Below are positions 1 through 55,778 of a stretch of 64,000 nucleotides of DNA, piece after piece. Source of the stretch: Naegleria gruberi (taxonomy: Eukaryota). The stretch lies in assembly GCA_000004985.1 (NCBI GenBank), contig GG738912.1. One strand, written 5' to 3'. How positions within the stretch are numbered: the first letter of the stretch is position 1; each line of letters opens with the position of its first letter. The translations under genes were made by a program, and so were the position numbers. Below the pieces are notes generated by a model. It worked only from the letters and a program-made list of their open reading frames with translations. It was not told the origin of the DNA and did no database searches.

Positions 1-243
1 TCATCCGTGCTGTGTTGACTCGTAATAATTAATTTTTTGATAGACCTTTTGAATGTTGTGGCTGATCTTTTAATTTTTTGAAACGCCATTTTCTTTTGCA
101 TAAAAAACGTGAAGTTTACAAAAAGTTGGTCAACCAGCAATCACGTAATCACGTTTGTTATTAATAGAAAATATAAAACGTGAAACCTGTGGAAATAATC
201 GATTTTTGCAATCAACACTTTCTAATAATTATTTCAAAAGAAA

Positions 244-3593: not shown

Positions 3594-4777
3594 ATGCAAG
3601 ATCTGTTGGAAAAAGCGCAACACCATCACGAAAAATTAACATCTGATCTGTTGAATATTAAAAAACAACATTTAAACAAAGAGGAAGAGGAATACGAAAA
3701 GTTTCGAATAACAAATTTGGCAAATATTAGCAATGTAAAGTTGCGGATGAAAAAGAGACGAATATTTGCCATGGACAGTTCGATTTATGGAATTTCTTGG
3801 TCTAGAGATTCATCACTGGTTGTGTCTGTAGCGAGAGGAGGAAATTTAGCAGTAAGTTTTCAAACTGAATGAAGAATAATTTAATTTAGTATAGTTTTGG
3901 AGAACTAGAGAAAATAAGAAAATCGCTGAAATGATGGTTTTGGATTATTGGACAATGTGCTGCAGTTTAAGTCCTTCTGGAAGGTTGATAGCAACTGGAG
4001 GAACCAGAAATGATGTTTATGTTGGTAAGTGATTGGAATATTGGATTCTAAACTGAACTATTTCAGATATTGTTAAAGAAGGAACGTATAAACAAATAAT
4101 TACTCCAACATTTAGAAACATGAGTGGACACCGTGGTTATTTGAGTAGTTGTGAATTTATTGATGAAATTCAACTAGTAACAAGTTCTGGCGATGGGTAT
4201 TGTATTTTGTGGGATGTGGAAATGGGAAGAGCTGTTCATTATTTCAAAGTATGTTGGAATTATTTGGAATCTGATTTAATTAAAAATATTATAGAAACAC
4301 AAATCGGATTGCATGTCAGTTTCTGTAAATCCAATTGATAGGAATTTGTTCATTAGTGGCTCGTGTGATATGAAAGTTTGCTTGTGGGATTTGAGAATGA
4401 AAAAATGTGTGAATTCATTTAAGGGTCATCATTCACATGATATCAATGCTGTGAAATTTTTTCCAAATGGATTGGGTTTCGTAACTGGATCAGAAGATCT
4501 TACCTGTAAACTATTCGATTTAAGGGTTGAAAGACCACTAACGACATTCTCAAATGATGAACTAAATGAGCCAATATCAAGTGTATGTTTCAGCAAGTCG
4601 GGTAGAATTCTATTTGCAAGCCATGGTCCAAGTATTATTGCTTGGGATACCTTAACAGGAAAAATGAATTGTGAAATTGCCAAACTGAATATCAAGTGTT
4701 CTTGCTTGGAAGTTTCTCCTGATGGAAGTGCATTGGCTGCAGGTTCTTGGGATCACTTTCTCCGAATATTTGCTTGA
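3594..4777 (+). CDS. heterotrimeric G-protein beta subunit (WD40), 4 exons
   Basis: Exons are 3594-3851, 3919-4024, 4067-4248 and 4295-4777, joined by GTAAGT/GTATGT...AG introns of 67, 42 and 46 nt. Joining them restores a continuous G-beta sequence: an N-terminal coiled coil (MQDLLEKAQHHHEKLTSDLLNIKKQ), then SGHRGYLSSCEFIDEIQLVTSSGDGYCILWD, then FFPNGLGFVTGSEDLTCKLFDLR, ending in the C-terminal GSWDHFLRIFA (compare canonical GSWDSFLKIWN). Confidence 0.8.
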
Positions 4778-5122
4778 AGCTATTATGGATAATTTCAGTT
4801 AGAAGGGAAGTTTGAATATTCGAAAGATGAGTGGAACTGAATCATCGTTACAACAGCTAGTTTTACAAATGATTAGCATTTGAAACAGATTAACATTGAA
4901 ACAAAGCTTAAACGAGTGAATAATATGCAAAATGAAAAATAATATTGAAGCATCATGATTAAGGTGGAATCAAAGACATCTGGTAATGTTTCTAAAACAT
5001 TCGATCTTCCATTAGACCAATATATGAATAAGAACACAATTTAAAATTCCGAATCCATCATATCCGTATGTCTATTAAAAAAGAGAATTAAGAAAACACA
5101 AAAATCAACTAACATTAAAAAA

Positions 5123-19142: not shown

Positions 19143-22100
19143 TTAATTTTTTCTATTCCTTTTTGGTTTAGAAACAAATGTTGGGACTCTTGTGAGTGAT
19201 TGTTTTTCATATTCAAACTCTATCGCGGAAAAATGGTTATATTGTTCACCAAAGTATCCTCTAGCTTCTTGGTTTCCATTTTTAGCAGCTTTCAACAACC
19301 AGAGTGTTCCTTGTGTTACATCTGTTTCACATAATAACTTTCCCAACGCCAACTCTGCATCTGAATTTTGTTGTTGAGCAGCTTTGAGCAACCATGAATG
19401 TGCAAGCTTAATGTTTTTCGGGACAACCTTATCAAGTCCATACATATAAATCATTCCAAGAGAATATTGTGCATTTGAATTTCCTTGATTAGCAGATTTG
19501 CAATACCACTCAAAAGCAAGTGAATAATTGGGTGTTTGGATGATATTAAGTGTATGATGATAAATGCAAGCTACTTCATATTGGGCTTCATTATTTCCAA
19601 GTTCAGCAGCTTTTTGATAGTAATCCCATGCTTTTTGATTATCCTTTAATTCTTTATAGAGATATCCTAAACGAAAGAGTGCTTCTGAATTCTTCACATC
19701 AGATTCTACTGCTTTTAGATACCATATAATGGCCTCATGTTTATCCAATAAAACACCATCACCCAGCTCATACATTTCTCCAATATCATATTGTGAATCA
19801 GAATCATTGAATTTTGTAGATGCTTCCAAATACAATTCGTGTGCTTCTTGATAATTACCCTTATTAAAAAACATTCTAGCCACATTTCTAAGAGCTTCAA
19901 TATGCGTACTTATTATTTCAGCTTCTCTAAAAATAAGTTTTCTATATTCTTCATCAATTTCCATTCTTTTTAAATTCATATTATTACCTAATATAATGTG
20001 TTCGCCAGAAACTAAGATATCTGTAGTAATAGTAGAAAGCTTTTGCTTGGATAAATCGAGTGCTTTTTGGTAAAGTTTAAATGCCAACAATTCATTACTT
20101 GATATTCCATTATCACCATCTTCAAGCATTGATGCAACATAATTAATGGCAGGAATATAGTTACTATCATATACTTTCTTAAATAGCTCAAAAGTTTCGG
20201 TATTGTTTGTTTTGGAATAATGAATAGCTTGTTGGAATAATTTCTCCCCTTTATCATTACTAACTTCCAAAATCATATCCAATTGACTTGCAGAATATAA
20301 AACTCCATATTCCACGCCTTCCATTTCTAAAGTATTAACGTTCATCTCATATTGGTTTCTTCTTTGAGCATCTTCTATAAAATAAGAAATCAATTTTCTT
20401 TTTTGAGAATCATTATTTAACACTAAAGAGTAGAGAGTGTAATTATTTTGCTCTGATTTCTCCATTTCTAAAATGTGAGAGGAGAAGTTTGGGATTAGAA
20501 TAAATCTGCTTTTGTCTTTGATTAAATGGCCCATTTTTAAACCAAATTGTGTGACAGATTTTAGAGAGGAATTTAGAGAAATAATATGCACCTCCTTGTC
20601 CTTAAGAAATAATACAAAAAATCTCCAAAAAAGGTCCATCATTTCCGAGACCATTTGAACTCGCTGTTTCTTTTTGTTAATCTGTTTGAAAATAGTTTGA
20701 AATAATTCCTTATAAATATCTTCCATCCTTTTTTGATAATCATTTGGTTTCGTGTTGTTTTTGAAAATATTTGCTATCTTGTACTTGATAAATGTGATTA
20801 AATGTTGTCTGTCATCTACACGTGCTATTTGAGAATTTGGGTCTTTAAACTCTAATTTTTGAGAAACTAACAATTGCATACTATCATATAATTTACCAAC
20901 TAGAGAAACACTGCGCCTCAATGGACCATGTTTGTTCTTGTGGTAGTGTGGAAAGCCAGGGAATTTTTCAAGTAGTTCTAAATCTTGTGCATTTACAGCA
21001 ACACTGTAGTTGCCTTTTTTGGGAGCGTCGATAGCCCTGTTGATGAGAGTACATAATCTTTCCATGTTATTCCAGTATTTTCGTGACCATTGATTTCCAT
21101 AAAAATCAGCAAACAAATGACGAATTCCAATCAAGTCTTTGAATATATCAGGATCGAATGATCGTGTCTCATTGTAGTCGTCATCAAAAGATCCTGGATC
21201 GAACTCTACTAATGATTCTACTAGTTCGTTATCCCAACATGCAAAATATTGATCTCCATCTAGATCAGATCCTGCAATCATATTTGTTATTGGTCTACTT
21301 CCTTTTGTAGGAAAAACAATAACATCGTAAAGAAAATTCAATTCAGGAATGTTGACTGCCTCTAATTTTCTCAGGTCACCACGATGTAAGCATGGCTCTT
21401 TAGTGACAATCACAGTATTCTCAATTACATTCTTCTTCTTTGGATCATTTAGAGAGGAAACTTGAATAAATATTTGACCTTCTTTGAGTACTCCGAAAGG
21501 ATCTGCTATTCCGTACAACCTTCTAGAACTGTAACAAGGAATTCTCAAGGAGAGTATTTGGTTTCTGTAGGGGCCTGTCAGGAAAGCAAGCTTTTTGCTT
21601 TTTAGAATGGAAAGAACGTTAAGAGAGGCATAGTCTCCTTGTTTTACGTACTGATCAAAAACCTTGTCAATGTCCGATTCTGAAATATAGTTTTTCATCA
21701 AATTTTCAATATGTTTACAGGCCTTTTGGTTTAGTATTTCGAATATCTTTCCTTGTTTTGTTTCATCTTCACACCCTTCTAAAATGTGCATAATTGTCGA
21801 ATTGATTCTAGCAAAATCACAGGGGCTTGAATAACCTACGATGCATAAATTATTAATTATATCATCATCAGTGTTTGGGTGTTCAATTTTCATCATTGAT
21901 TTCCTTAGCACTAAATGGTGACCATACACCTTTTCCGCATTTGGATGGATGTAAACCATGCCTTTGGCTCCTCTAAATCTTATTTGGTATGCACAGGGAA
22001 GATATTCATTGACTAGAAACTCTACTCCATCATTTTCTTCGTAGATACCATCTTCATCCATCGATTGTTTGCTCTGGTATTTCAATAAATTTTTAGATTT

Positions 22101-23297
22101 ACGAACAATTTCATAAACTTTCATAGCCAATTCAAGAGAAATAAATCCACATCCATCGGTGAAAAGTCCCTCATCATTAATAACAGTGTATTCTGAAACT
22201 CCAATAGTAGGAATAACAGGAGTATTAAATAAAGCCAGTCTTAAACTTTGCTTTAATTTGTTATTCTCAAAATAAAGATCCCTGTTCAATGTATCTGGAA
22301 TGGCCCATGTTTTTACATCATGTATTGATAGGGAAGAATTGTTTGGAAGTTTGGAAAGATCAGGACACATGTAAATAAATCGATAAGAATGCATTCCACT
22401 CGTATTTTGACACAGTTTCTGGAATGTAAATCCAGCAATATGTAAAGGCTCTTCTCTTTCTATATATGGCTCTATTAGCCTGAATGATTGGTTATCCATT
22501 AACACTCTGCTAATGTGCTTTTGGTCTTTCATTAATTTCAATGTTTCCTCATCGAATTTTCCTTCCTTGAATTGATTTAAATATTGTCTCAATAATACTA
22601 TATCTCCATGATCCTCTGATTTTGATTCCATAGCCACTTGATCCTTCAATTCAATATTATTTAAAATTTCAGGGTGCTCTCCAGTAGATTCAAGAATCAT
22701 TTGAGATTTGAAACCCATTCTCAAAAAGCTAAATCCAACATTCAACACTGTATTCACACCAAATTTTTGTCTAAACCTACTCTGTAGCCATCTATCTTGT
22801 TGTGAGCTGTTGAATCGAATGGCAAGAATGGGTGATATCTTTGGTTTGTAAAAACAATATAAGGTTGCTGTTCTAGTCCTAAACATTGTCTCTGATTCGT
22901 CCAATTCTTCTGTTGTTTGCTTACTTGGAGATGAAAGGTTTAAATTCTGATGATCCTCTTCCTTCTCTGTTATTGTTGCTAACAACCACCGATGAAGAGC
23001 CTCTAATCCTATCGGATAGGCAATCACTGCCATCCTAGAAACTCTCTTTAATATTTCATAGCGATCGACGAAGGACATTCCACAATACTTTTCCCCTCTC
23101 ACATTTTTGAAATTAAATTCCAAATATTTGGTACAATCATCAAAATTTCTAATGATCGGAATGGATTCAATCATGTAATAAGTTGCCAATAAATCCTTTA
23201 CGTAATTTTCATCTTGTCTATTCATAAACTTTAACTCTTCAAGTTGTTGAATCTTTTCAAGCTTTGAGAACCCAGAAACAAAAGACAATACGGACAT
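19143..23297 (-). CDS. cellular RNA-dependent RNA polymerase (RDR family) with C-terminal Sel1-like repeats
   Basis: 1384-aa intron-less ORF from ATG 23297. The catalytic RDR signature GSDLDGDQYFACWD is at about 21252-21293. The C-terminal ~300 aa (about 19143-20030) hold at least five Sel1/TPR-like repeats (AQYEVACIYHH…, AQYSLGMIYMYGL…, AELALGKLL…). Confidence 0.8.
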   Translation of the reverse strand: MSVLSFVSGFSKLEKIQQLEELKFMNRQDENYVKDLLATYYMIESIPIIRNFDDCTKYLEFNFKNVRGEKYCGMSFVDRYEILKRVSRMAVIAYPIGLEALHRWLLATITEKEEDHQNLNLSSPSKQTTEELDESETMFRTRTATLYCFYKPKISPILAIRFNSSQQDRWLQSRFRQKFGVNTVLNVGFSFLRMGFKSQMILESTGEHPEILNNIELKDQVAMESKSEDHGDIVLLRQYLNQFKEGKFDEETLKLMKDQKHISRVLMDNQSFRLIEPYIEREEPLHIAGFTFQKLCQNTSGMHSYRFIYMCPDLSKLPNNSSLSIHDVKTWAIPDTLNRDLYFENNKLKQSLRLALFNTPVIPTIGVSEYTVINDEGLFTDGCGFISLELAMKVYEIVRKSKNLLKYQSKQSMDEDGIYEENDGVEFLVNEYLPCAYQIRFRGAKGMVYIHPNAEKVYGHHLVLRKSMMKIEHPNTDDDIINNLCIVGYSSPCDFARINSTIMHILEGCEDETKQGKIFEILNQKACKHIENLMKNYISESDIDKVFDQYVKQGDYASLNVLSILKSKKLAFLTGPYRNQILSLRIPCYSSRRLYGIADPFGVLKEGQIFIQVSSLNDPKKKNVIENTVIVTKEPCLHRGDLRKLEAVNIPELNFLYDVIVFPTKGSRPITNMIAGSDLDGDQYFACWDNELVESLVEFDPGSFDDDYNETRSFDPDIFKDLIGIRHLFADFYGNQWSRKYWNNMERLCTLINRAIDAPKKGNYSVAVNAQDLELLEKFPGFPHYHKNKHGPLRRSVSLVGKLYDSMQLLVSQKLEFKDPNSQIARVDDRQHLITFIKYKIANIFKNNTKPNDYQKRMEDIYKELFQTIFKQINKKKQRVQMVSEMMDLFWRFFVLFLKDKEVHIISLNSSLKSVTQFGLKMGHLIKDKSRFILIPNFSSHILEMEKSEQNNYTLYSLVLNNDSQKRKLISYFIEDAQRRNQYEMNVNTLEMEGVEYGVLYSASQLDMILEVSNDKGEKLFQQAIHYSKTNNTETFELFKKVYDSNYIPAINYVASMLEDGDNGISSNELLAFKLYQKALDLSKQKLSTITTDILVSGEHIILGNNMNLKRMEIDEEYRKLIFREAEIISTHIEALRNVARMFFNKGNYQEAHELYLEASTKFNDSDSQYDIGEMYELGDGVLLDKHEAIIWYLKAVESDVKNSEALFRLGYLYKELKDNQKAWDYYQKAAELGNNEAQYEVACIYHHTLNIIQTPNYSLAFEWYCKSANQGNSNAQYSLGMIYMYGLDKVVPKNIKLAHSWLLKAAQQQNSDAELALGKLLCETDVTQGTLWLLKAAKNGNQEARGYFGEQYNHFSAIEFEYEKQSLTRVPTFVSKPKRNRKN

Positions 23298-38501: not shown

Positions 38502-40013
38502 TTATTCCTGAGGTTTTTTAATGACAATCTCCTCAATTCTCTTCACAGGTACATAGGAGACAACGCGTCCAACTTCTTGCCAATCTGAGAGAGTTTCCTC
38601 CTCTACCTCAAATGTAGTTTTAGGTGGAGCATTGGAGTGAATTGGATCATCCGTCTCTGAATGTGAAAAGGCAAATGGTGTTGCCAATCTTTTCAAGTGA
38701 CCAAAGGTACCCTTCTCTTGCTCCATTCTTGGACGAATGAAGGCAGATTTGGAACGACCAACTTTCTTACCAGAGTCTGTAGAGCTAATTGTTGGTGAGA
38801 GTGTTGGGGTGGTTTGTGAGGACGGTGTCTCGACAGATTTTTGTGAACTTGGTGGAGTAATGAGCTCATCCAATTGAGGAGAGGTCACGAGTGAAATAAC
38901 TGGAGATCCTGGAGTGCTGGCTGAATGAGCTTCTTCCATATCGATACCAAGGAATGAAATGGAACTCTTCTTTTTGATGGCAATTTCTGGAGTGTTTTCT
39001 TCCTTTTTTTCAATAAATTCTCTTTTTGGAGGAGTTGGAAGCTCGATAGTGAGTTTGAAATCATCTTCTTGCTCTTGCTTTTTGACCTGTTTGTTTTTGG
39101 ATATGGTCAACTCTGACATGCAGGACTCACTCAAATCTTGTAAGAAATTGAAAAGAAGAGAAGAATCCTTGAATCTATTTTGATAATCATGATTGATCCA
39201 ATTCAATAGTGCTGGTAAAAATTGGCCTCTACCTCCAAAATTATTCAACTCACTCAATTCCATTATTATTCTCTTCACATCTTCAATATTTACAATGGAG
39301 AGGAATACTTGATTCTTGATGAATTTTTCAAAATTTCCTTGCAGACATTCCAAACATTTCACTTTGATTGATTTGAATTTTTCATTCCAAATCTTTCCTC
39401 CATATCGTTCAATGAAATTCAAATTCTCCTTCTCTTTTAATTTGAATGGAGGAACATAAGCTTTGGTAAAAGTATTTACATTTGATCGTTGTCTAGTAAT
39501 TAATACAGGTTTCAACATGTCATTCATGAATGAGTTTGGATCTACAATTGTCTCAATAAAAGTATTCTTGCAATAATTTGAAGTCTTTGTTTCATTGAAA
39601 ATGGACAATAATTTCAATACATCTTCAAATATATTGTCTCCTTGAATGATTGATGTGAAATTGTCATGCAAATTGTGAAGGAGAGAAACTACAATTTCTG
39701 GTGCGAAATATTCATTAGATAACTGTAATAGAGGAATAATTTCATTATTTTCCCAGTCAATTCGTCCACTATAATAGAAAGTGAGAAATTTCCTAACAAT
39801 GGATGGTTTGTGTTTTGTGATGGTTATCATTGAAGAGGAACTAAATAATTGTTTGAATGACATATTTTTACAGGCCAAAACAATTCTATGAATTTTAAAT
39901 ACTTCCCCAGTGCCATTAAATGTGACTCGGATTTCACCATCAGGATAACTTTCACTCTTGTTAAAGCATTCCTCTACATTCTGTGGAGAGTTGAACAATT
40001 TGAAAACACCCAT
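38502..40013 (-). CDS. BTB/POZ domain protein
   Basis: ATG at 40013. The N-terminal segment GEIRVTFNGTGEVFKIHRIVLACKNMSFKQLFSS matches the BTB core (dv.f.v.g..f.aHk.vLaa.S..F..lf). The C-terminus is Ser/Thr/Pro-rich. Confidence 0.55.
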   Translation of the reverse strand: MGVFKLFNSPQNVEECFNKSESYPDGEIRVTFNGTGEVFKIHRIVLACKNMSFKQLFSSSSMITITKHKPSIVRKFLTFYYSGRIDWENNEIIPLLQLSNEYFAPEIVVSLLHNLHDNFTSIIQGDNIFEDVLKLLSIFNETKTSNYCKNTFIETIVDPNSFMNDMLKPVLITRQRSNVNTFTKAYVPPFKLKEKENLNFIERYGGKIWNEKFKSIKVKCLECLQGNFEKFIKNQVFLSIVNIEDVKRIIMELSELNNFGGRGQFLPALLNWINHDYQNRFKDSSLLFNFLQDLSESCMSELTISKNKQVKKQEQEDDFKLTIELPTPPKREFIEKKEENTPEIAIKKKSSISFLGIDMEEAHSASTPGSPVISLVTSPQLDELITPPSSQKSVETPSSQTTPTLSPTISSTDSGKKVGRSKSAFIRPRMEQEKGTFGHLKRLATPFAFSHSETDDPIHSNAPPKTTFEVEEETLSDWQEVGRVVSYVPVKRIEEIVIKKPQE

Positions 40014-40207: not shown

Positions 40208-40939
40208 TTAGAACTTCATTTCGTGTGGCTTATCACCGTTTTGGAGTCTGAAAGGAGTTTGGAGGTATTCCTTCAACAATTCGACCTTACCGACGGCAGC
40301 AACAACTTGTTGGTCGACAGCATCGAAAGTCTTCTTATTTTCTTCAGAGATAGCACCCTTCTTTCCGGCTCTGAACCAACTCTTCTTACCAGTTTCATCC
40401 AATCTGGTCTTATGTTCCTTTGTGAAAGTAGCATCAGTAACGGTAGCTGGGACGGTAACAGCAGAAACGTCAACCTTGGTGGAGGTAGCGATAACGTATC
40501 TTTGGTTAACTCTTCTCAATGGGACACCGTTTAATTGGAATGGACCAGTGACCAAGAGGAGACCTGATGGCAATTGCTTCAAGAAGACAACTCTCTTACC
40601 AGCGAATTTACCAGCCAACAAAATCAAAACAGTACCTGGTGTAATTGTGGATCTGAGCTTGGTGGCCTTTTGTGGCTTAGCACTCTTGGATCTGATGGTA
40701 GTGAGGGAGAAATCAGCAGCAATTCTGTCATCAGCAACTTCAACAGTAGCCTTGTTTCTAACAACCTTGATCTTTTGTTGCTTGACAACCTTCTTGGTTC
40801 TCTTAGCATCACTCTTAATGTAAGAGAAAGTACCCTTCTTCCAGAACAAAGAATTTGGGCTCAATCTGGTGACAGACTTAGCCAATGGAGCCATAGACTT
40901 CTCCTTGTTTGGGTTTTCCTTTCTAACTCTCTTAGGCAT
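40208..40939 (-). CDS. RPL6: 60S ribosomal protein eL6
   Basis: ATG at 40939; the track ORF is extended upstream of the true start. It opens MPKRVRKENPNKEKSMAPLAKSV… and continues KFAGKRVVFLKQLPSGLLLVTGPFQLNGVPLRRVNQRYVIATSTKVD…, collinear with eL6 throughout. Confidence 0.85.
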   Translation of the reverse strand: MPKRVRKENPNKEKSMAPLAKSVTRLSPNSLFWKKGTFSYIKSDAKRTKKVVKQQKIKVVRNKATVEVADDRIAADFSLTTIRSKSAKPQKATKLRSTITPGTVLILLAGKFAGKRVVFLKQLPSGLLLVTGPFQLNGVPLRRVNQRYVIATSTKVDVSAVTVPATVTDATFTKEHKTRLDETGKKSWFRAGKKGAISEENKKTFDAVDQQVVAAVGKVELLKEYLQTPFRLQNGDKPHEMKF

Positions 40940-41348
40940 CTTTATTGATGAATATTTGATATTGGTGGTTGATGAAGAAGACAAAAATATGCGTAAGATA
41001 TTAATTGGAGGATGATGAATACGAACCTTTTTAATTGTGACTTTTTTTTTCAACAAAATTTTTTAATTAATATCAGGTTGTCTTTCCAATGACGATTTTA
41101 CAATGAAAAATTTTTAGGCATTTTTGCTTTCAATTCCTTCAAGAAAGAAGAAAACAAAGAACCCAGCAACTCAACATGCTAATTTCATAATGTTTTCACA
41201 ACACTTTTGGAAGTAATAACAACACTATTAGGATTAACATAAATTAGATTTTATTCTCTCTAGATTACATCTCGTTTTTGAGTGTCAAGATGAAGGAACA
41301 CTTCAGCAAATAATCATGGATGATTGTCGATAAATATTTACACACAAT

Positions 41349-45558: not shown

Positions 45559-48334
45559 TTATTTTGATAGTTCTAATAGGAAAGAAACCCCCAAAACAGC
45601 AAAAAAATAATAAACCATATTAGCAACAGGTTCTCTTTGATTTCTTGGAGTTGTTTCAATTGGATTGAGTTCTTCTTCCTTGCTTTCAGATTGTTCATCA
45701 ACTGCAACAATTGAGTTTTCAACTTGTTCTTGGAAGGATTTGAGTTTTTCTTCGTAAGAGTTGATTTTCTCAATTGACTTTTCGAAATTTTGTTTGAGAG
45801 CTTCTTTTTCTTTTCTTTCCTTTTCATTGTTGATTTTGGCAGAGTTTAATTGCTCTGAGAGTTGGTTGATTTGAGTTTTGAGAAGTTTGTTTTGATTCTT
45901 TTCAATTTCAAGAGAGTCAGAAAGTTGTTGAGTGGATTGCTTTTCTTTTGTGAGTTCTTCTTTTAAGTTTTGGGATTGTTTAGTTAATGAGTTTGATAAT
46001 TCTTGAAGCTTTTCCTTCTCAGTTTTTGAGAGGGATTCGTTTAGTTTCTTCTGATAAATCAAATCTTTTTGAAGAGATTCTAATTGTTGGGTGAGAGCAG
46101 AATTTTGTTGTTCAAGCTGTTTGGCATTTGACAAATCCTTCTCATATTGAGAAAGTTTGTGTTCCACTATTTGCTTTTCTTCTTTCAAACTGGTGAGAGA
46201 TTTCTCATGATCTTCTTTCAAATTACCAATTTGATTTTCCAATTCTGATTTTTGCTGCCTTTGTTTCTTCAAGTCTTGTTCCATCTGGTTGATTTTTTCT
46301 TCAAGTTGACTTGTAGAGTTATTACTTGTGGACTTTAAACTCTCATTTTGTTTCAATAGAGATTGATTCTTTTCAACCTCTTCCTTTAGCTTGTTTTCAA
46401 TATCAAGTTTTTCATTGGTCAGTGTTTCAATTTGTACATTTAAATCCTTGTTGGAAGATTGTAATCTTTCAACTTGTTCTTTTTCATTTTCATACTTTTG
46501 AGATATTTCTTCAAGATTTTTCTTCGCATCATTTAGTTCATTTTCAATCTTTTTCATAGATTCGGTATGTTGTTCAATGTTGTGAGAAAGTTCCTTTTGT
46601 AATTGATTATATTTTTCTTGGAGAGCTTGGTTTTCTGATTGCTCCTTTTCTAATGCCTTACTGGTCTGTTCCTGAAGTTCCTTCAAGCTCTTGAATTGTG
46701 TTTGTAGAGAGGAAACTGTCTCATCAACTTGGGAATTGCTTTCTTTTGCTACAATTTCCAACTTTTCTTTCAATTCCAACTCAACAGAATTCAATCGTTC
46801 AACTTCCCTTCTCAAATCATCAACAGAGTTATTTGAAATGATTAATTCAGATTTAACCGATTCTAAATTATTCTTGAGAGATTGTTCAGTTTCTCTAATC
46901 TTTTCAATTTCTTCCTTTTCCTTTTCTAATTGATTAGTTGCTTGAGAAAGTTCCTCTGTGAGTTTTTCCACTTCTTGAACAACTTTTTGCTTTTCTTCAA
47001 TAAGAGTTGTCAATTTTTGTTCAGAATTTTCCTTCACCTCATTCAAAGATTGTTCAACAGCTTCGAGTTGTTGTTTCTTCTCATTGATATCAATTTCCAA
47101 TTTACTGCACTCTGCCAATTTCAATTCTAACTGAATATTCAAATTAGAGCAAAATGGACAGGTTTTTTCATCGTGCAACAATTCAGGAGCATGTGTCAAT
47201 ATCACAGGAGGTTCTTCCATTGACAAACTGTGAGATAATCTAGGAGACCTTGGTGATCTTGGAGATTTTGGTGAGACAGGATTTGAGGCAGGTGTTCCTT
47301 CTTCAGCTGATGGCATCAACTCTTCTCCTTTTTCTTTGAAATATGAAAGGTAGGTCACTATGTTATTGAGGTATATAAGAAACTTGAAGAATGAAATTGT
47401 ATTACTTACACATGGAAAGTTTCTCAGGACCCTTCTCCAAAATATCCGAATCAATCAAATTTGGAATTTCCAATTGATCATTGGCTACACTAACCAAATG
47501 TTCATTAATTTCTGATTTTGATTTTGTGGTATTAATAACATCTCTTTCATAATTAAAATATTTGAACATTTCTTCCAAATCATTTCTAAACTTTTCCTTC
47601 ATGAGTTTGTCAATAACAGCACCAAGTGCTTTGCCATCAGACCAACTTGATGAGATATCACCAACAGAGAAACCATACTTTTCAGTATATTCTGAGATAA
47701 TGTCTTGTACCCAATTTAACATGGATTTTTCAACTGAAACTTTTCCCTTAGTTGGCGATTCCATTACATCTGATTGCTCATCTGATGAAGAGTTGATTTG
47801 ATAGAATAAAATCATTCTCCAGACGAGAGCAAGACAAATTTTTAAATTTCCCTTGTGCTGATTCAATGAATTTCATGATGTTTCGAATAAAAACTTACAA
47901 TTTCGTCTGAGGTGATACCTGTGAGGTTTATGCCAGATTGGGCCATAGAGTTCAACGCTAGGTTGATATTTTCAATCATTTGAATAGGAATTTTAGGTTT
48001 CTTATTCATCTTGGATGACAAGGTAGTTTCGGATATAGAATTTTGTTTCTTTTTCTTTTTCTTTGTCTTGACCTTGGATTTTAATTGGTCCAAAAGATAA
48101 CACAAATTAACTCCATCAACAAAAGCACTAGTCAAATCCTCTACTGTAATGTTTTCTTTTCGTAATTGAACATTAACCCATTGTGTAAATGTCTTATCCG
48201 AAATAATTAGAAACTAAACTATTCTAACTTACCACATGTTGCACATCGACCCAATTACTATCAAACTTGGATCCTCTTGGAGTAGTTGGCGTGCCAGTTG
48301 AATTAATCTCTTCTTGCAATAGTATGTGGGCCAT
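45559..48334 (-). CDS. actin-binding domain (CH1-CH2) + long coiled coil + C-terminal transmembrane anchor protein (interaptin/nesprin-like architecture), 4 exons
   Basis: Exons are 48334-48233 (MAHILLQEEINST…VQHV), 48192-47899, 47776-47410 and 47357-45559, with introns of about 40, about 122 and 52 nt. Exon 2 encodes CH1 (FTQWVNVQLRKENITVEDLTSAFVDGVNLCYLLDQL). Exon 3 encodes a CH2-type motif (SMLNWVQDI…SSSWSDGKALGAVIDKL). Exon 4 encodes a Pro/Ser-rich linker (SPKSPRSPRSPR), a ~500-aa heptad-repeat coiled coil and a terminal hydrophobic anchor (MVYYFFAVLGVSFLLELSK*). Confidence 0.6.
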
Positions 48335-48797
48335 TTTTTAATATTTATTTAAATGTCTCTTCACCAATCTTCGTATGTGTGTGTTGACAGGCGAAAGAAT
48401 TTTCAAGTTTAACAGCCCATTCATTAAAACAACCATATCTTTGACAAGAATGGAAGAATCATTTTCAAAAAAGTTGAGTGCACCGTTATTTTGATAAGAG
48501 CACTCTCATTACAATAAATTTACAAGATAAAATTACAATCTTTTCCTACTGAACATCAACGTTTGTCAGAGATTCAGTATAGTTACTTACCTTCATTGTC
48601 TCCTATGATGTAAAGTTGATTGGTTAGAGGCGAACAATCCATGGTCATGTTCATGACAGGTTTTGTTTTTAGAGATAATTATCCCTGCATTTATGAACTG
48701 GACGAAAATTGGCACAATTATGACACACTCAACCACTTTAAAATAACAAAACAGTAAAAAGAGTTAATTTCAGCCTTTTACATTATCATTTCATTAC

Positions 48798-49607
48798 CTA
48801 TGCTTGAGTATTGTTGTTTTGCTTTGATGCTTTTCTCAATATAAGTACAATGACAACCACAACAATAATCCAAATACAGAAACAACAAACAACACCTAGT
48901 AGTGATCCAACAACGGCTCCAGCTATAGCTCCCGCTTTTCCATCTACTTTTGGTTGTACATTATTCTCTAGTAATACAGAAGGACTACAAACTTTAGTGC
49001 CTGTTTCGTCACATCTCAGATAAATGAAGTATTGGTATGCATCTGGCTTATCAGGTAGTATTGTTTCTCTTGAGAATGATGTAAATCCGCTAGTTGGTTC
49101 TAAAACTGTGCTGGGAATTGTTGGAGAGGAAATAATCTTTAAAGTCATTTTGTCAGATGTGGTAATTCTGAGCTTGTAACCATTTGGTTGCTTGTATCCT
49201 GGATGTGTGTACATTTCAAGTCTGGAGGAAGGAATTTTAGGGGAGTACCAATCATTTCTGCTCATATATTTGAAAACTCTGGTAACTTGGAGAGTGGTGT
49301 ATGTCTCTGAGGTGGTGCCTTCATTGTATAGAACAAAGTTAACATCACCACCACCCACATTCAGCTCATATTCATTTTCAAAGTAGGCACGAGAGGCAAG
49401 ACGAACAAATTTCGAATAGTCTAAAGTAGGGCCTGGAACATATCCAAAACTGACGAGCATAGACGAAGCTTTAAACTCATAGCTGTATAAACCATAGCCA
49501 GAGAATGTTCCAACATTAACAAATGATTTGGCAGCAATAGATGTTTGACTTGCCACTAATTGACCAAGCAATAAAACAGTCAATGATAGAAGGTATTGGC
49601 AGTTCAT
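48798..49607 (-). CDS. type I membrane glycoprotein (signal peptide + single C-terminal TM)
   Basis: ATG at 49607. Signal peptide MNCQYLLSLTVLLLGQLVAS, a beta-rich ectodomain and a TM segment GAIAGAVVGSLLGVVCCFCIWIIVVVVIVLIL, followed by a short basic tail. Confidence 0.4.
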   Translation of the reverse strand: MNCQYLLSLTVLLLGQLVASQTSIAAKSFVNVGTFSGYGLYSYEFKASSMLVSFGYVPGPTLDYSKFVRLASRAYFENEYELNVGGGDVNFVLYNEGTTSETYTTLQVTRVFKYMSRNDWYSPKIPSSRLEMYTHPGYKQPNGYKLRITTSDKMTLKIISSPTIPSTVLEPTSGFTSFSRETILPDKPDAYQYFIYLRCDETGTKVCSPSVLLENNVQPKVDGKAGAIAGAVVGSLLGVVCCFCIWIIVVVVIVLILRKASKQNNNTQA

Positions 49608-50378
49608 GATGATTTTTTTTTTGTGATGAAAAGTCATATCGATCACAATCCTAATTTTCACAAATTAAGAAAAAAAATATTTTACAATAGTGTTAATAGT
49701 CCTGACATAGTGCACTCTTTCGAATAAAATAGAAAAGCTTTCCAAAAAGATGAGTTTGGCCGTATCACTTCACTTGTCTGATAATTCACTGAAAAATTGG
49801 AGTAACATTGATTGGAGCGTTTACATCCTTCATACTTTGAACCATTAATGGATGATTGTTCACTTCCTCATTAACCCTTTATCTAGATATTCTCCAAGAT
49901 GACATGATTCTTTTTTCTATGGATTTTATTACCAATGGGGCTTACATATTCGAGGATGCTGAGCGAGTAATGGTTTCTTTCCAGATTACTTAAGTTATTT
50001 CAATTCCATCAATCCACCAGTATTGAATGTTGTGTGATACTAGGGACTTTATTAAGGTAGGAATGAGAGCAAGTGTTTCTTTCAGAATCTCAAATCCAGA
50101 ACCTTTTCCCATTTCAATCAAAACCACGAAACAGACTGCACAGGCCTCAACTCAAAAAAGAATTCAAGTACAAACAAAATGCCAATCTTCACTCAAGGAA
50201 ATTGAAGCAAAAGCCGAAGCAACATCTAAAAGGAGAAATACCAACTTTTGATTCCTTATCGATCAACGCTTCAATCTGAAAGAGTATTTAATCTATTCAA
50301 ATACTATCATCGGATTAAGCGCACCAACAATTATTCAAATTGAATTAGTTAAAAATCCATAAAAACATCTTCAAGAAA

Positions 50379-52100
50379 ATGATTCAACGAACAACTGTCT
50401 ATTATAAGAAACGACTTTTCAATACTTTTCTTATCGGTTCTTTGAAAAGATTTCAATTCTCTTCTTTTCATATTTCTAATTGCAACCAATTGGAATCCCA
50501 AACATTGAGTGCTGATCAATCCAAATGTCCTTATCACAAAACCGATTCAACGAAACAAGCCACTCTCCAAAATTGCAAATCTATTGATGAAATGCCAGGT
50601 CCTAAGAGATTACCACTTATTGGAAACTTGTTAGATTTAATTAAGAATGTAAAGTCAAATGCTGGTCCTTATTTTCTTTCATTGTCGGAACAGTATGGTG
50701 ACTTGGTTAGATTGAAAACCTTCAACAATGATCTTGTGATATTATCAAATCCAGAGTTGATGGGTGAATTATATAAGAAGGAAGAAAAGAGGTCAACCAT
50801 TCAAAGTTCAAGAAAGTATAAGCTGGAGAGAGGAATTCCTTTGGCTCCAATTGAAATGCTCTATGAGGAACCATGGCAAGAGACTAGACAATTGTTTAAC
50901 ATTGCCATGAAACCAGAATTCCAAGATCAAGTCGTAATTCCTCAATTGACTCAATTGAATGGTGAAATGATAAGAAGATTAATTAAATACTTAGAACCAA
51001 CACAAGATCCAGATAAATTCAGACTAACGGATAGTGTAAACGCCATTTCAAGATATGGTTTCGATGCAGTAATGGCTGTTTTTCTTGGTGTTAAAATGAC
51101 CGATGATATTACAAAAACATTTCCATTTGAAATTTCAGATTTTGTAAAGTATTCAGTTGAGTCATTGGATGTAATAATTAGATTATTGACAAAACCATCC
51201 CTGTATCAATATTTTAAAACAAAAGAATACAAGAGAATGGAATTTACCTATGAAAAATCATTCGAATATGCAAATTATGTAATGAACAGGTTTAAGGTCA
51301 ACCCAAGCGAAAAGCCAAGATTGTATGAACTGCTAATGGAACGTTCAAAGAATGAACCAAATCCTGAAATTCTGGTTCAATCAGTTATGAATTCATTCCT
51401 TCAAGCTGCAATCGACATTACAATGACAATGATGAGTCATGTCATGTACAGATTAGCTCATCATCCAGATTACCAAAAAAAACTTTACAATGAGCTATTA
51501 GAGGTATTTGGAGAGCCAACTTTAGACGAGGTTACTTCAGAGAACGGTCTAGTAGTAAATGCAGAGCAATTCAAGAAACTAAAGCTCACTAAAAACTTTG
51601 TGGAAGAAGTTTTACGCCTCAATCCCTTTGGATATGCTTCCAGTGCAAGAATACTCAATAACGATACAGAACTGGGAGGATATAATATTCCAAAGGGTAC
51701 AACAGTTATTGCACTCCAAAGACGTGCTTGTTTGAGTGAAGAGTTTGTGCCACGAGCTCAAGAATTCATTCCAGAAAGATATGAGAGAAATTCACCATTG
51801 GCAATGAAGAGTTCATTTGTAAGCAGTCCATTTGGTGTTGGTGTAAGTTTTCTATCAATTGCTTCAATTAACTTGCGAATTAAGGCAAGAAAATGCCCAG
51901 GTAGTAGAATTGCAACCTTAGAACTTTGCATGTCAATTGTCAACACTGTCAGACATTTCAAACTTTCCTTAGAGGAAAAGGAATTCCCAGAAATGAGCAC
52001 CGATCGTTCCTTACTCTACATTGACATGCAAAAGCATCCACTGATCTTCTCTCCAAGATCCCATCTTACTGATTATTGCAAATCTCAAAAGAATTTGTAA
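50379..52100 (+). CDS. cytochrome P450 (mitochondrial-type presequence), at least 2 exons
   Basis: ATG at 50379. Shows PGPKRLPLIGNLL, EVLRLNP, FIPERY and the heme-binding signature. The heme motif is split by an in-frame 42-nt GTAAGT..AAG intron at 51843-51884. Splicing gives PFGVGARKCPGSRIATLE, which fits FGxGxRxCxG. Confidence 0.8.
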   Translation: MIQRTTVYYKKRLFNTFLIGSLKRFQFSSFHISNCNQLESQTLSADQSKCPYHKTDSTKQATLQNCKSIDEMPGPKRLPLIGNLLDLIKNVKSNAGPYFLSLSEQYGDLVRLKTFNNDLVILSNPELMGELYKKEEKRSTIQSSRKYKLERGIPLAPIEMLYEEPWQETRQLFNIAMKPEFQDQVVIPQLTQLNGEMIRRLIKYLEPTQDPDKFRLTDSVNAISRYGFDAVMAVFLGVKMTDDITKTFPFEISDFVKYSVESLDVIIRLLTKPSLYQYFKTKEYKRMEFTYEKSFEYANYVMNRFKVNPSEKPRLYELLMERSKNEPNPEILVQSVMNSFLQAAIDITMTMMSHVMYRLAHHPDYQKKLYNELLEVFGEPTLDEVTSENGLVVNAEQFKKLKLTKNFVEEVLRLNPFGYASSARILNNDTELGGYNIPKGTTVIALQRRACLSEEFVPRAQEFIPERYERNSPLAMKSSFVSSPFGVGVSFLSIASINLRIKARKCPGSRIATLELCMSIVNTVRHFKLSLEEKEFPEMSTDRSLLYIDMQKHPLIFSPRSHLTDYCKSQKNL

Positions 52101-54301: not shown

Positions 54302-55778
54302 ATGATGAAACATAAAATTGGATTCATGCTGAGGAGGAAATTAGCATCCTCACCCACGACTGTGGTTAGGAATTTACTTCCGAACAATAGCAAGAAATCA
54401 GTGATGAGGTTTTCAATTTTGGATGACAAATCTCCTTCAATATTAATTTCTATGAATATGAAGGCTTCGTATCATCGAAATATTAGAATGATGAACAATC
54501 AGAGACAGGAACAAGAGGAAGACTATTTTGAACACTATAGAAGACAATATCAAATTAATGAAGTTTTTGAAAATTATTATGATACCCAATCGGAAAGAGG
54601 AAAAAAAGAACACATGAACAGATTGCTGTGGTTCTTGATTGCATTCCCAGCCTTCTTCTTTGTATCATTACAGGCCTTTTTGGCTAGTGATGCTGTTAAT
54701 CATCAGGATTTGAAGAATGTTACAATAAGATTGGAAGAAGCAATACCAACTACTGTAGGAAATAGAGAGAATATTTCAGGAGATCGTTATGATGAGTCAT
54801 CCTCAATGCAACAACAAGAAAAAGCAGAGGTGATTAAAGGACCAATTTTGGACGTTCCTAATGATAATTATTTACAAAAATTATCAAAAGATGTAAGAAG
54901 ATATCCAGTTATTTGGGGAATTATTGGATTGAATTGTGCCATGATGCTTATGGTAAAAGGATTCAAAAGATCGCCAAGATTCCACGATTTTTATTCGAAA
55001 CATTTGACTGTTTCAGTACATAATTTATTGAAGAGAAGATATCATACCTTGTTAACCTCCACTTTTGTACATGGTGATTGGCTTCACTTAGGTTTTTGCA
55101 TGTATGGCCTTTACAATATGGGATCTCTTACCTATGATTTGATGGGACCTACAACATTTTTGCTTTTTTATTTAGGTGCTGGTATGACTGCATCAATGGG
55201 TAGTTCCTTACTCAAATTAATAACAAAGAATTATTATCAGAGATCTGTTGGTTCAAGTGGAAGTATTTTCGCAATTGTTTTTGCTGGCCTTAATGTTATT
55301 ACATTTGAGAAGGCCAAAATGAATTTAATTTTCCTTCCAGATAGTTGGGGAGGTTTCAATGCCACCTACTTTTTACCATTATATTTTGTTGGTGAAATTC
55401 TTTATAATATCTTCTCGAGAAGAGTCAAATTGGATACAGGTAAGTTTTCATACTTTTCACGTTATTGAACTCTACAAAGGTGGTCACTTGAGCGGAGCTT
55501 TGGCTGGATATTTAGCATTGGAAGCAATGAAAAATCAATCTTATCACAAGCAAACCAGAAAAGTGGAATTTAGTGGAAGAAATACTTATTATTTGGGTGA
55601 AGTTAAAGATTTAAAAAAGAATGGAGCTGGTGCCTTAATTGGAGGAAATATGTCATATGTTGGTAATTTCAAAGATGGAAATCCAGAAGGTCAAGGAATT
55701 GTTATTGTAAATACAAACGAAGGAACAAAAGCTATTAAAGGTATCTTTAAGAATGGAAACTTTACACCAACCAAATAA
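54302..55778 (+). CDS. rhomboid-family intramembrane serine protease (PARL/Pcp1-like) with C-terminal MORN repeats, 2 exons
   Basis: Exon 1 is 54302-55439 and exon 2 is 55480-55778, with a 40-nt GTAAGT..AAG intron. The GxSG catalytic serine (VGSSGSIFAIVFAG) is in exon 1. The catalytic histidine lies across the splice junction (…KLDT|GGHLSGALAGYL). The C-terminal tail has YYLGEVKDLKKNGAGALIGGNMSYVGNFKDGNPEGQGIV, which is MORN-like. The N-terminus is basic and presequence-like. Confidence 0.7.

What the first reader, a model, noticed from the sequence alone, without database searches (positions are those of the whole stretch)
45559..48334. Interaptin/nesprin-like gene: actin-binding domain, long coiled coil and C-terminal membrane anchor
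Joining four exons gives a protein with an alpha-actinin-type tandem CH1-CH2 actin-binding domain, a Pro/Ser linker, about 500 aa of uninterrupted heptad coiled coil, and a single hydrophobic segment at the extreme C-terminus with a lumenal tail of only one residue (…AVLGVSFLLELSK*). This is the architecture of nuclear-envelope or ER actin linkers such as Dictyostelium interaptin and metazoan nesprins. A canonical KASH lumenal peptide is absent, so it may be a tail-anchored variant. Fungi are not known for ABD-containing KASH-like proteins, which makes this informative about lineage and biologically unusual.
Basis: partly seen in the sequence, partly recalled or inferred. Interest (0 to 1): 0.5.

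Follow-up and report, generated by a model that had tools for sequence, protein, structure and literature searches.

The report
Tail-anchored actin-binding coiled-coil protein, Naegleria
This is a real four-exon gene of the amoeba Naegleria gruberi (not a fungus) whose protein has an actin-binding head, a long coiled-coil stalk and a membrane anchor at its very end. It probably ties an internal membrane such as the ER or nuclear envelope to actin filaments, as interaptin and calmin do elsewhere, and it is not a KASH/nesprin protein.

Summary
On the minus strand, four exons (48334-48233, 48192-47899, 47857-47410, 47357-45559) give an 880-aa protein. It has a tandem CH1-CH2 actin-binding domain, a Ser/Pro linker, a 493-aa proline-free heptad rod, and one C-terminal hydrophobic segment followed by only ELSK.

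Exact look-ups of neighbouring genes show the window is Naegleria gruberi (Heterolobosea), not a fungus.

The same plan, with introns at the same positions (two of three checked in N. fowleri), occurs in N. fowleri FDP41_006354 and in a divergent environmental contig. A 99%-identical second N. gruberi allele shows purifying selection, and its only indel lies inside an intron.

No KASH or spectrin-repeat signal is found. The lumenal tail is 2-5 residues, too short to reach a SUN domain.

The actin-binding domain is no closer to nesprin or interaptin-like domains than to generic filamin-type or uncharacterised ones. The resemblance is therefore in architecture, probably convergent.

Best reading: a tail-anchored, probably dimeric tether between F-actin and the ER/nuclear envelope, analogous to interaptin and calmin. 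It is an uncharacterised new member of a known kind, of moderate-to-low interest. Interest is raised slightly because Naegleria amoebae lack interphase microtubules.

The parts
45559..48334 (-). Whole coding region, ATG to TAA: 4 exons, 3 introns, 880 aa
   Evidence: Splice enumeration. Junctions read through seamlessly against N. fowleri P0001 and the environmental ortholog L003.
48233..48334 (-). Exon 1 (aa 1-34), ending ...NWVDVQHV. The start ATG is preceded by an in-frame TAA.
48193..48232 (-). Intron 1 (40 nt, GTAAGT..AAG)
   Evidence: The only indel between the window and allele L002 is a 1-nt insertion here. The same intron position occurs in L003 and in the N. fowleri-like contig L004.
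47899..48192 (-). Exon 2 (aa 35-132): most of CH1, including a Lys-rich loop insertion
47858..47898 (-). Intron 2 (41 nt)
   Evidence: Same position in L003 (NEI|NKGNLK).
47410..47857 (-). Exon 3 (aa 133-281 plus the first base of codon 282): end of CH1 (GNLKICLALVWRMILFYQI) and most of CH2
47358..47409 (-). Intron 3 (52 nt, phase 1). It splits CH2 before its last helix.
   Evidence: Same position in L003 and L004 (KLSM|LTY).
45559..47357 (-). Exon 4: last CH2 helix (LTYLSYF), linker, rod, transmembrane segment, tail and stop
47335..48250 (-). Tandem CH1-CH2 actin-binding domain (aa about 29-289, interrupted by the three introns)
   Evidence: Pfam CH x2, E=4.6e-23. PDB actin-binding domains at E about 1e-20 over aa 15-290. 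63% identity to N. fowleri.
47146..47316 (-). Ser/Pro-rich linker (aa 296-352) with SPKSPRSPRSPR and a CPFC motif
   Evidence: The 18-nt tandem repeat at 47238-47274 encodes the SPR repeats.
45667..47145 (-). Coiled-coil rod (aa 353-845, 493 aa)
   Evidence: 0 Pro, 1 Gly, 0 Trp; heptad test z=13.2. No Pfam spectrin hit.
45574..45618 (-). C-terminal transmembrane segment MVYYFFAVLGVSFLL (aa 862-876)
   Evidence: Highest hydrophobicity in the protein: Kyte-Doolittle mean 2.15 over 15 aa, 1.75 over 19 aa. An equivalent segment is present in N. fowleri and L003. It has one synonymous change and no replacement change in allele L002.
45559..45573 (-). Four-residue tail ELSK plus the TAA stop (a second TAA follows)
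   Evidence: Compare EFSR* in L003 and SRKQD* in N. fowleri.

Best explanation
A single four-exon Naegleria gruberi gene encodes a tail-anchored actin-to-membrane tether.

Shown:
- An N-terminal tandem-CH domain of the alpha-actinin/filamin type.
- A flexible Ser/Pro linker.
- A rod about 490 aa long with heptad periodicity. This would be about 70 nm if it forms a continuous coiled coil.
- One C-terminal hydrophobic helix with only 2-5 residues after it.
- No signal peptide and no other hydrophobic segment.
- The plan is conserved in at least three diverged Naegleria-lineage sequences.

Inferred:
- The protein is made in the cytosol and inserted post-translationally by the GET/TRC40-type route.
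- Insertion is most probably into the ER and the continuous outer nuclear membrane, because the transmembrane segments are hydrophobic (GRAVY 1.9-2.6) and the tails carry a net charge of 0 to +1.
- The rod probably forms a parallel dimer. This would hold two actin-binding heads tens of nanometres from the membrane, so the organelle is coupled to F-actin.
- It does not work through a SUN-KASH bridge.
For: Organism:
- Six neighbouring ORFs in the first look-up, and a seventh in the second, are exact matches to N. gruberi proteins on one 238,573-bp scaffold.

One gene, not two:
- Intron 3 cuts CH2 before its last helix, and that helix lies in the same exon as the rod and the transmembrane segment.
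- N. fowleri FDP41_006354 (608 aa) aligns across the actin-binding domain, linker and start of the rod at 47% identity, E=6e-126. It ends in FNIILLAVAVISVTLLM-SRKQD.
- Environmental contig L003 has the same three intron positions and the same plan. Its spliced product is 846 aa and ends IHTVLVFVSALLLVTLAF-EFSR.
- The N. fowleri-like genomic contig L004 shares introns 1 and 3.

Selection:
- Allele L002 differs by 13 synonymous and 7 replacement codons. No replacement falls in the actin-binding domain or the transmembrane segment. The only indel is inside intron 1.

Domains:
- CH domains are supported.
- The rod heptad signal has z=13.2, 7.7 and 4.2 in the three orthologs.
- A single-sequence AlphaFold model of the N. 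fowleri protein gives long helices at 329-458 and 480-565 (pLDDT 70-90) and a terminal helix over the transmembrane segment.

Membrane anchor:
- Each protein has exactly one Kyte-Doolittle 19-residue segment of 1.6 or more, at the C-terminus.
- The ER-type rule is a hydrophobic transmembrane segment plus a low tail charge (PMC5450235).

Functional precedents with the same layout:
- Interaptin lies on nuclear envelope/ER membranes (PMC2148174).
- Calmin is an ER-actin tether (PMC10849733).
Against: - There is no expression, localisation or actin-binding data for this protein. No paper mentions it.
- The N. gruberi transmembrane segment is the weakest of the three. It is 15-17 residues long, contains Tyr-Tyr, Gly and Ser, and has a Glu near its end. 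A crude position-independent Hessa sum is +3.5 kcal/mol for the best 19-mer.
- The organelle-targeting rules come from yeast and mammals, not from Heterolobosea.
- Dimerisation and strand orientation of the rod are assumed, not tested.
- The closest non-Naegleria relative of the actin-binding domain (P0022, 1703 aa) has no transmembrane segment. The anchor is therefore not universal in the wider family.
Confidence: 0.6

Rival explanations
1. It is a tail-anchored actin tether on a different membrane, such as the mitochondrial outer membrane, peroxisomes or the contractile-vacuole system, rather than the ER or nuclear envelope.
For: The N. gruberi transmembrane segment is short and only moderately hydrophobic (GRAVY 1.9-2.15). 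Arg residues flank the segment on the N-terminal side in all three orthologs. N. fowleri has a basic RK in its tail. Small changes in tail charge or hydrophobicity re-route tail-anchored proteins between organelles (PMC5450235).
Against: Tail net charge is only 0 to +1. The transmembrane GRAVY of the other two orthologs is 2.45-2.62, which is ER-like by the yeast (>1.75) and mammalian rules. The two characterised analogues, interaptin and calmin, are ER/nuclear-envelope proteins.
Confidence: 0.2
2. It is a soluble or cortical actin cross-linker of the cortexillin or alpha-actinin kind (actin-binding domain plus dimerising coiled coil). The C-terminal hydrophobic stretch would then be a protein-protein or peripheral lipid-binding element, not a membrane-spanning anchor.
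For: An actin-binding domain plus a parallel coiled coil is sufficient for actin bundling in Dictyostelium cortexillins (own knowledge; cortexillins are cited in PMC2148174). The N. gruberi segment scores marginally on the crude Hessa sum. The relative P0022 lacks any transmembrane segment.
Against: A 15-18-residue uncharged hydrophobic run sits at exactly the C-terminus and is conserved in position in three orthologs. Their flanking rod sequences are otherwise diverged: about 24% identity between N. gruberi and N. fowleri in an approximate alignment, and local BLAST finds no significant match beyond the first ~115 rod residues. The run is preceded by a helix-breaking Pro/Asn-rich stretch. There is no replacement change in the segment in allele L002.
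Confidence: 0.1
3. It is a true LINC-complex component: a KASH-like outer-nuclear-membrane protein that binds the Naegleria SUN protein in the perinuclear space.
For: N. gruberi has a SUN-domain protein (XP_002675222) and no recognisable Pfam KASH protein (PMC3198171), so a divergent partner is expected to exist. The overall layout resembles nesprin-1/2.
Against: Only 2-5 residues follow the transmembrane segment in all three orthologs, and there is no PPPX-type terminus. By my own knowledge of SUN2-KASH structures and plant WIP proteins, known KASH peptides need roughly 10-30 lumenal residues. Pfam KASH is not hit even at E<=1 on the isolated C-termini. There are no spectrin repeats. The actin-binding domain is very distant from nesprin-2. 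Even interaptin is now thought not to bind Sun1.
Confidence: 0.05
4. It is a gene-model artefact. The CH-domain exons and the coiled-coil ORF would be two adjacent genes, or one would be a pseudogene.
For: No transcript evidence was obtainable here. My 880-aa model is not in the protein collection as an exact sequence.
Against: The CH2 domain would be truncated without exon 4. The same continuous product is annotated in N. fowleri. Intron positions are conserved in the other lineages checked: all three in L003, and introns 1 and 3 in the N. fowleri-like contig. There are no frame-breaking differences in allele L002, and synonymous changes exceed replacement changes.
Confidence: 0.03

Closest known systems
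Interaptin (abpD) of Dictyostelium discoideum and the interaptin-like Acytostelium subglobosum XP_012750456
   Same: N-terminal alpha-actinin-type CH-CH actin-binding domain, Ser-rich linker, long coiled-coil (not spectrin-repeat) rod, C-terminal membrane-association segment and no clear KASH domain (PMC2148174; PMC11816917). The Acytostelium protein has a transmembrane segment 10 residues from its end.
   Different: Interaptin is about twice as long (1737 aa) and has a membrane-association domain of about 120 aa. The Naegleria actin-binding domain is only 27% identical (99 bits) to the dictyostelid one. It ranks 80th of 168 compared, below many filamin-type and other uncharacterised tandem-CH proteins. 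The rods and tails are not alignable. Common ancestry of the whole architecture is not supported, and convergence is more likely. I could not retrieve D. discoideum interaptin itself.
Calmin (CLMN), vertebrate ER-actin tether
   Same: Tandem CH actin-binding domain at the N-terminus and a single C-terminal transmembrane anchor. It is an ER-resident tether to actin and has no KASH domain (PMC10849733).
   Different: Calmin is described as vertebrate-specific, and that paper's reference list cites work on nesprin gene evolution. By my own knowledge, its CH domains are considered nesprin-related and its middle region is not a long heptad coiled coil. No direct sequence comparison with calmin was made here.
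Nesprin-1/2 (SYNE1/2), ANC-1 and MSP-300: KASH proteins of the LINC complex
   Same: N-terminal CH-CH actin-binding domain, very long rod and a C-terminal transmembrane segment. These are tail-anchored proteins (PMC3296292 abstract).
   Different: Nesprins have spectrin-repeat rods and a lumenal KASH peptide of about 30 residues ending in PPPX that binds SUN. Here the rod is a Trp-free heptad coiled coil with no Pfam spectrin hit, and the tail is 2-5 residues with no KASH hit. The actin-binding domain scores only 46 bits and 24% identity against avian nesprin-2.
Cortexillin I/II of Dictyostelium
   Same: CH-CH actin-binding domain followed directly by a dimerising parallel coiled coil. This is a precedent for this layout forming a two-headed actin binder (own knowledge).
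   Different: Cortexillins are soluble cortical proteins with a short C-terminal PIP2-binding motif and no transmembrane segment. Their rod is about 200 aa.

Membership tests
Alpha-actinin/spectrin-superfamily tandem-CH actin-binding domain | A type-1 CH domain followed by a type-2 CH domain, alignable over both to solved actin-binding domains | tested here: met
   Pfam PF00307 matches in two stretches, E=4.6e-23 and 81.9 bits against a cutoff of 26. Filamin, MACF1, dystrophin and alpha-actinin domains align to aa 15-290 at E=2e-20 to 1e-16.
Alpha-actinin/spectrin-superfamily tandem-CH actin-binding domain | Conserved actin-binding-site motifs (CH1 TFTxWxN; CH1 GNxKxxLxLxWxxIL; CH2 SWxDGxAxxAxxx and the terminal ..xxMTYxSxF helix) | tested here: met
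   TFTQWVN, GNLKICLALVWRMILFYQI, SWSDGKALGAVID and LSMLTYLSYF are visible in the filamin alignment. Actual F-actin binding was not tested.
Tail-anchored (TA) membrane proteins | A single transmembrane segment within about 30-40 residues of the C-terminus, with a very short lumenal tail | tested here: met
   The only Kyte-Doolittle 19-residue segment of 1.6 or more starts at aa 858-860 of 880, and the tail is ELSK. The same holds for N. fowleri (tail SRKQD) and L003 (tail EFSR).
Tail-anchored (TA) membrane proteins | No N-terminal signal peptide and no other hydrophobic segment | tested here: met
   No other window reaches the threshold in any of the three orthologs. The N-terminus MAHILLQEEINSTG is polar or acidic after 6 residues. 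No dedicated signal-peptide predictor was available.
Tail-anchored (TA) membrane proteins | Post-translational, GET/TRC40-dependent insertion with a lumenal C-terminus | not testable with these tools
   Needs insertion assays or localisation experiments.
KASH-domain proteins (Pfam PF10541; LINC complex) | A transmembrane segment followed by a conserved lumenal peptide of roughly 10-30 residues, typically ending in PPPX, that binds SUN | tested here: not met
   Tails are 2-5 residues with no Pro. There is no PF10541 hit on the full proteins (E<=0.01 for N. gruberi; E<=1 for N. fowleri) or on the isolated C-termini of all three orthologs at E<=1.
KASH-domain proteins (Pfam PF10541; LINC complex) | SUN-dependent localisation to the outer nuclear membrane | not testable with these tools
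   N. gruberi does encode a SUN protein, XP_002675222 (PMC3198171). The interaction was not tested.
Nesprin/spectrin-repeat rod proteins | A rod built of about 106-aa three-helix spectrin repeats (PF00435) | tested here: not met
   No spectrin hit. The rod has 0 Trp, 0 Pro and 1 Gly, and a continuous heptad signal with z=13.2.
Interaptin family (orthology with Dictyostelium abpD) | Actin-binding domain, Ser-rich linker, coiled-coil rod and C-terminal membrane association | tested here: met
   The architecture is identical in outline (against PMC2148174).
Interaptin family (orthology with Dictyostelium abpD) | Specific sequence relationship: the actin-binding domain or tail is closer to interaptin than to other actin-binding-domain classes | tested here: not met
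   The dictyostelid interaptin-like protein P0169 scores 61.5 bits against the N. fowleri protein, versus 92-104 bits for the best other tandem-CH proteins, which include spectrin- and filamin-type ABDs. It ranks 80th of 168 against the N. gruberi domain. D. discoideum interaptin itself could not be retrieved, and the identification of P0169 as an interaptin ortholog is my inference.
Calmin (CLMN) | CH-CH domain plus a C-terminal transmembrane segment, ER-resident | tested here: inconclusive
   The layout matches. No calmin sequence was available for comparison, and calmin is reported as vertebrate-specific.

The most novel reading that the evidence does not exclude
Heterolobosea independently assembled an interaptin/calmin-type tether (actin-binding domain, coiled coil, tail anchor). 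In Naegleria amoebae, which have no interphase microtubules, this protein would be a principal link that positions or shapes the ER and nucleus on the actin cytoskeleton, without any SUN-KASH bridge. That would make 'tail-anchored actin-binding tether' a recurrent, convergent eukaryotic solution found in Amoebozoa, vertebrates and Discoba.
Probability: 0.3. Interest if true: 0.5.

Novelty: new member of a known kind. Interest (0 to 1): 0.3.

Why it matters
Naegleria amoebae lack interphase microtubules (PMC7594500). Organelle positioning must therefore rely on actin, yet no organelle-actin tether has been described in this lineage. No KASH protein is known outside opisthokonts by Pfam criteria (PMC3198171).

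This gene is a concrete, conserved candidate, and it is also present in the pathogen N. fowleri. It adds a Discoba example to the small set of tail-anchored proteins with a tandem-CH actin-binding domain (interaptin, calmin, nesprins).

The practical corrections are that the window is not fungal and the protein is not a KASH/nesprin homologue.

Tried and rejected
- **Looking for the N. gruberi database record.**
  - Homology searches with aa 1-386 and aa 387-880 returned no N. gruberi protein.
  - Exact look-ups of my model, of four Met- or TTG-started exon-4 ORFs, and of the upstream ORF from its GTG start also failed.
  - The same searches also failed to return the 99%-identical ORF products of contig L002, which are in the collection. 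I therefore treat this as a limitation of the tools, not as evidence that the gene is unannotated.
  - By accession order the gene should be EFC38040 / XP_002670784 / D2VYY7, which lies between D2VYY6 and D2VYY8.
- **Zinc-hook or disulphide idea.** The CPFC motif at the head of the rod is conserved as CPNC in N. fowleri but is absent from L003. I rejected it as a family feature.
- **CDK-site idea.** The SPKSPRSPRSPR linker contains S-P-[KR] sites, not the full S/T-P-x-K/R consensus. I downgraded this to a remark.
- **Structure prediction.** Single-sequence AlphaFold of P0001 gave pLDDT about 30 for the actin-binding domain. Only the helical rod is informative, so I ran no fold search.
- **Literature.** One search was wasted because 'calmin' matched 'calming'.
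- **Other features.** Rfam and tandem-repeat scans of the locus found nothing beyond the SPR-coding repeat. The neighbouring genes are functionally unrelated.
Full report
**1. What is in the sequence**

The minus strand of 45559-48334 holds a 631-codon ORF preceded by two shorter CH-like ORFs. I enumerated all GT..AG combinations that keep an open frame. One model places every junction inside well-known CH-domain motifs:
- exon 1: 48334-48233
- exon 2: 48192-47899
- exon 3: 47857-47410
- exon 4: 47357-45559

The introns are 40, 41 and 52 nt and all start GTAAGT. The product is 880 aa. An in-frame TAA lies two codons upstream of the ATG, and the stop is a double TAA.

Pfam finds two CH stretches at E=4.6e-23. 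Solved actin-binding domains of filamin A/B, an Entamoeba actinin, MACF1, dystrophin, alpha-actinins and plectin align over aa 15-290 at E from 2e-20 to 1e-15.

After the actin-binding domain comes a Ser/Pro linker (aa 296-352). Then follows a 493-aa stretch with no Pro, one Gly, no Trp and an E/K/L/Q-rich composition. Its a/d heptad hydrophobic signal is 13.2 standard deviations above shuffles. The actin-binding domain, used as a control, gives 1.1.

The only strongly hydrophobic segment of the protein is MVYYFFAVLGVSFLL at aa 862-876, followed by ELSK and the stop.

Two small corrections apply. Exon 4 begins at 47357, and the tail is 2-4 residues rather than 1.

**2. The organism**

Exact look-ups of neighbouring ORFs return Naegleria gruberi proteins from one 238,573-bp scaffold. 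Among them are D2VYY6 immediately downstream and D2VYY8 immediately upstream. The window is therefore heterolobosean (Discoba), not fungal.

By accession order the gene should be EFC38040 / XP_002670784 / D2VYY7. I could not retrieve that record. The homology tools also failed to return the near-identical ORF products of contig L002. The absence of a hit therefore says nothing about whether the gene is annotated.

**3. One gene or two**

Several lines of evidence show a single gene:
- Intron 3 cuts CH2 just before its last helix (..EKLSM | LTYLSYF..). That helix lies in the same exon as the linker, rod and anchor. The CH exons and the coiled-coil ORF therefore cannot be independent genes without truncating CH2.
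- N. fowleri FDP41_006354 (608 aa) is annotated as one protein. It aligns to the N. gruberi model through all three junctions, at 47% identity over aa 27-468 and E=6e-126.
- An environmental contig (L003) carries a more divergent ortholog, 36.5% identical over 712 aa. It has introns of 38, 41 and 39 nt at exactly the same three positions.
- A genomic contig of an N. fowleri-like strain shows introns 1 and 3 at the same positions.
- A second N. gruberi allele (L002, about 99% identical) differs in the coding sequence by 13 synonymous and 7 replacement codons. No replacement falls in the actin-binding domain or the hydrophobic segment. The only indel is a single base inside intron 1.

Together these indicate a spliced gene under purifying selection. 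Transcript data were not available.

**4. The anchor is conserved; the rod is a spacer**

All three orthologs end with one hydrophobic helix and a very short tail:
- N. gruberi: MVYYFFAVLGVSFLL-ELSK
- L003: IHTVLVFVSALLLVTLAF-EFSR
- N. fowleri: FNIILLAVAVISVTLLM-SRKQD

Each protein has exactly one segment above the Kyte-Doolittle threshold, and none has an N-terminal hydrophobic signal.

Rod length varies from about 236 to 493 aa. Rod sequence is poorly conserved, at about 24% identity between N. gruberi and N. fowleri. Local BLAST finds no significant match beyond the start of the rod. All three rods nonetheless keep heptad periodicity. This is as expected of a dimerising spacer.

A single-sequence AlphaFold model of the N. 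fowleri protein predicts two long helices for the rod (pLDDT 70-90) and a terminal helix over the hydrophobic segment. It is uninformative for the actin-binding domain.

**5. Not KASH, not nesprin**

- Neither the full proteins nor the isolated C-termini hit Pfam KASH or spectrin (the isolated C-termini and the N. fowleri protein were scanned at E<=1).
- A tail of 2-5 residues without proline cannot form the lumenal peptide that engages a SUN domain. This rests on my knowledge of SUN-KASH structures and plant WIP tails.
- The rod lacks the Trp and the loop residues of spectrin repeats.
- In a direct comparison, the N. gruberi actin-binding domain scores 46 bits against avian nesprin-2 domains (rank 166 of 168). 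It scores 99 bits against the Acytostelium interaptin-like protein (rank 80). It scores about 112-124 bits against the best other tandem-CH proteins, among them filamin-type and many unnamed environmental ones.

The similarity to interaptin and nesprin is therefore one of architecture, not demonstrable family membership.

Among the 150 best relatives of the N. fowleri protein, several unrelated-looking tandem-CH proteins also end in a transmembrane segment. They include the Acytostelium protein XP_012750456, which has the full plan of actin-binding domain, coiled coil and transmembrane segment. Three environmental proteins also do so: P0043 and P0138, which are little more than an actin-binding domain plus a transmembrane segment, and P0032. 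This combination seems to have arisen repeatedly.

The nearest relative outside Naegleria (P0022, 47% identity in the actin-binding domain) has no transmembrane segment at all.

**6. How it most likely works**

Shown: an actin-binding head, a flexible linker, a long heptad rod, and a single C-terminal hydrophobic helix with virtually no tail.

Inferred:
- The protein is inserted post-translationally as a tail-anchored protein.
- The transmembrane segments have GRAVY 1.9-2.6 and the tails have net charge 0 to +1. By the rules established in yeast and mammals, this favours the ER, and hence also the continuous outer nuclear membrane, over mitochondria or peroxisomes (PMC5450235).
- The rod probably dimerises in parallel. 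This would present two actin-binding heads up to about 70 nm from the membrane (493 residues at about 0.15 nm each).

The characterised proteins with the same layout support a tether function:
- Interaptin associates with the nuclear envelope and ER through its C-terminal domain and binds actin (PMC2148174).
- Calmin is an ER-tubule-to-actin tether (PMC10849733).
- Interaptin lacks a clear KASH domain and apparently does not bind Sun1 (PMC11816917). A SUN-independent mode therefore has precedent.

Naegleria amoebae lack interphase microtubules (PMC7594500), so an actin-based organelle tether is biologically plausible there.

The main uncertainties are the target membrane, the comparatively weak N. 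gruberi transmembrane segment, and the complete lack of experimental data.

**7. Verdict**

The gene and its architecture are real and conserved within the Naegleria lineage. It is wrong on lineage (not a fungus) and on nesprin kinship.

It is an uncharacterised new member of a known kind of protein. Interest is moderate to low. It would rise if the protein proves to be the ER/nucleus-actin link of a cell type without microtubules.

Noticed in passing
window 47238-47274 (aa 310-321) and aa 165-169: The linker contains four tandem S-P-[K/R] units (SPKSPRSPRSPR), encoded by an 18-nt tandem repeat. A full S-P-x-K site (ESPTK / ESPSK) in the loop between CH1 and CH2 is conserved between N. gruberi and N. 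fowleri but absent from L003. L003 instead has SP-rich sites in a 68-aa N-terminal extension. This may reflect proline-directed phosphoregulation next to the actin-binding domain.
   Followed up: partly
window about 47153-47164 (aa 348-351, CPFC): A CPxC motif sits at the junction of the linker and the rod. It is conserved in N. fowleri (CPNC) but missing from the environmental ortholog L003, so it is not a family-wide feature.
   Followed up: yes
window about 48044-48082 (aa 72-84): N. gruberi has a Lys-rich insertion (KSKVKTKKKKKKQ) in a CH1 surface loop. N. fowleri and L003 have different, non-basic sequences of similar length there.
   Followed up: no
L002 (ENA ERZ929261, run ERR1078381, labelled metagenome), 1-4810: A contig about 99% identical to window 45560-50370 carries the same gene and its upstream neighbour. 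It is evidently another N. gruberi strain or allele in a data set labelled as a metagenome. The homology search tools did not return its ORF products although they are in the collection.
   Followed up: partly
L005 (Logan SRR30197293 contig, 5243 nt), ORF 71-5182 = P0022: An intron-free, transcript-like contig from an unidentified organism. It encodes the closest non-Naegleria actin-binding domain (47% identity), fused to about 1,200 aa of acidic repeats and a C-terminal cytidylyltransferase-like (NMNAT-like, PF01467) domain. It has no transmembrane segment. This may be a genuine fusion or a chimeric assembly.
   Followed up: partly
P0043, P0138, P0032 (environmental proteins) and P0169 (Acytostelium subglobosum XP_012750456): Other tandem-CH proteins end in a transmembrane segment within 4-10 residues of the C-terminus. 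Two of them (P0043, P0138) are little more than an actin-binding domain plus a transmembrane segment (271-342 aa). Tail-anchored actin-binding-domain proteins appear to be more widespread among microbial eukaryotes than the literature suggests.
   Followed up: partly
L004 1-1010 (N. fowleri-like contig, opposite strand): In the N. fowleri lineage, the gene upstream of the ortholog encodes an actin-fragmin-kinase catalytic domain (PF09192). The N. gruberi neighbours are different, so there is no synteny.
   Followed up: no
window 19143-23297 (-): A 1384-aa single-exon ORF is identical to N. gruberi D2VYX5, which UniProt names RNA-dependent RNA polymerase.
   Followed up: no
window 38502-40013, 40208-41056, 48798-49607, 50379-52100, 54302-55468: The neighbouring genes are functionally unrelated to the finding: a BTB protein, ribosomal protein L6e, a 269-aa predicted protein with a hydrophobic N-terminus and a C-terminal hydrophobic stretch (D2VYY8, no Pfam hit), a cytochrome P450 and a rhomboid protease.
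   Followed up: yes
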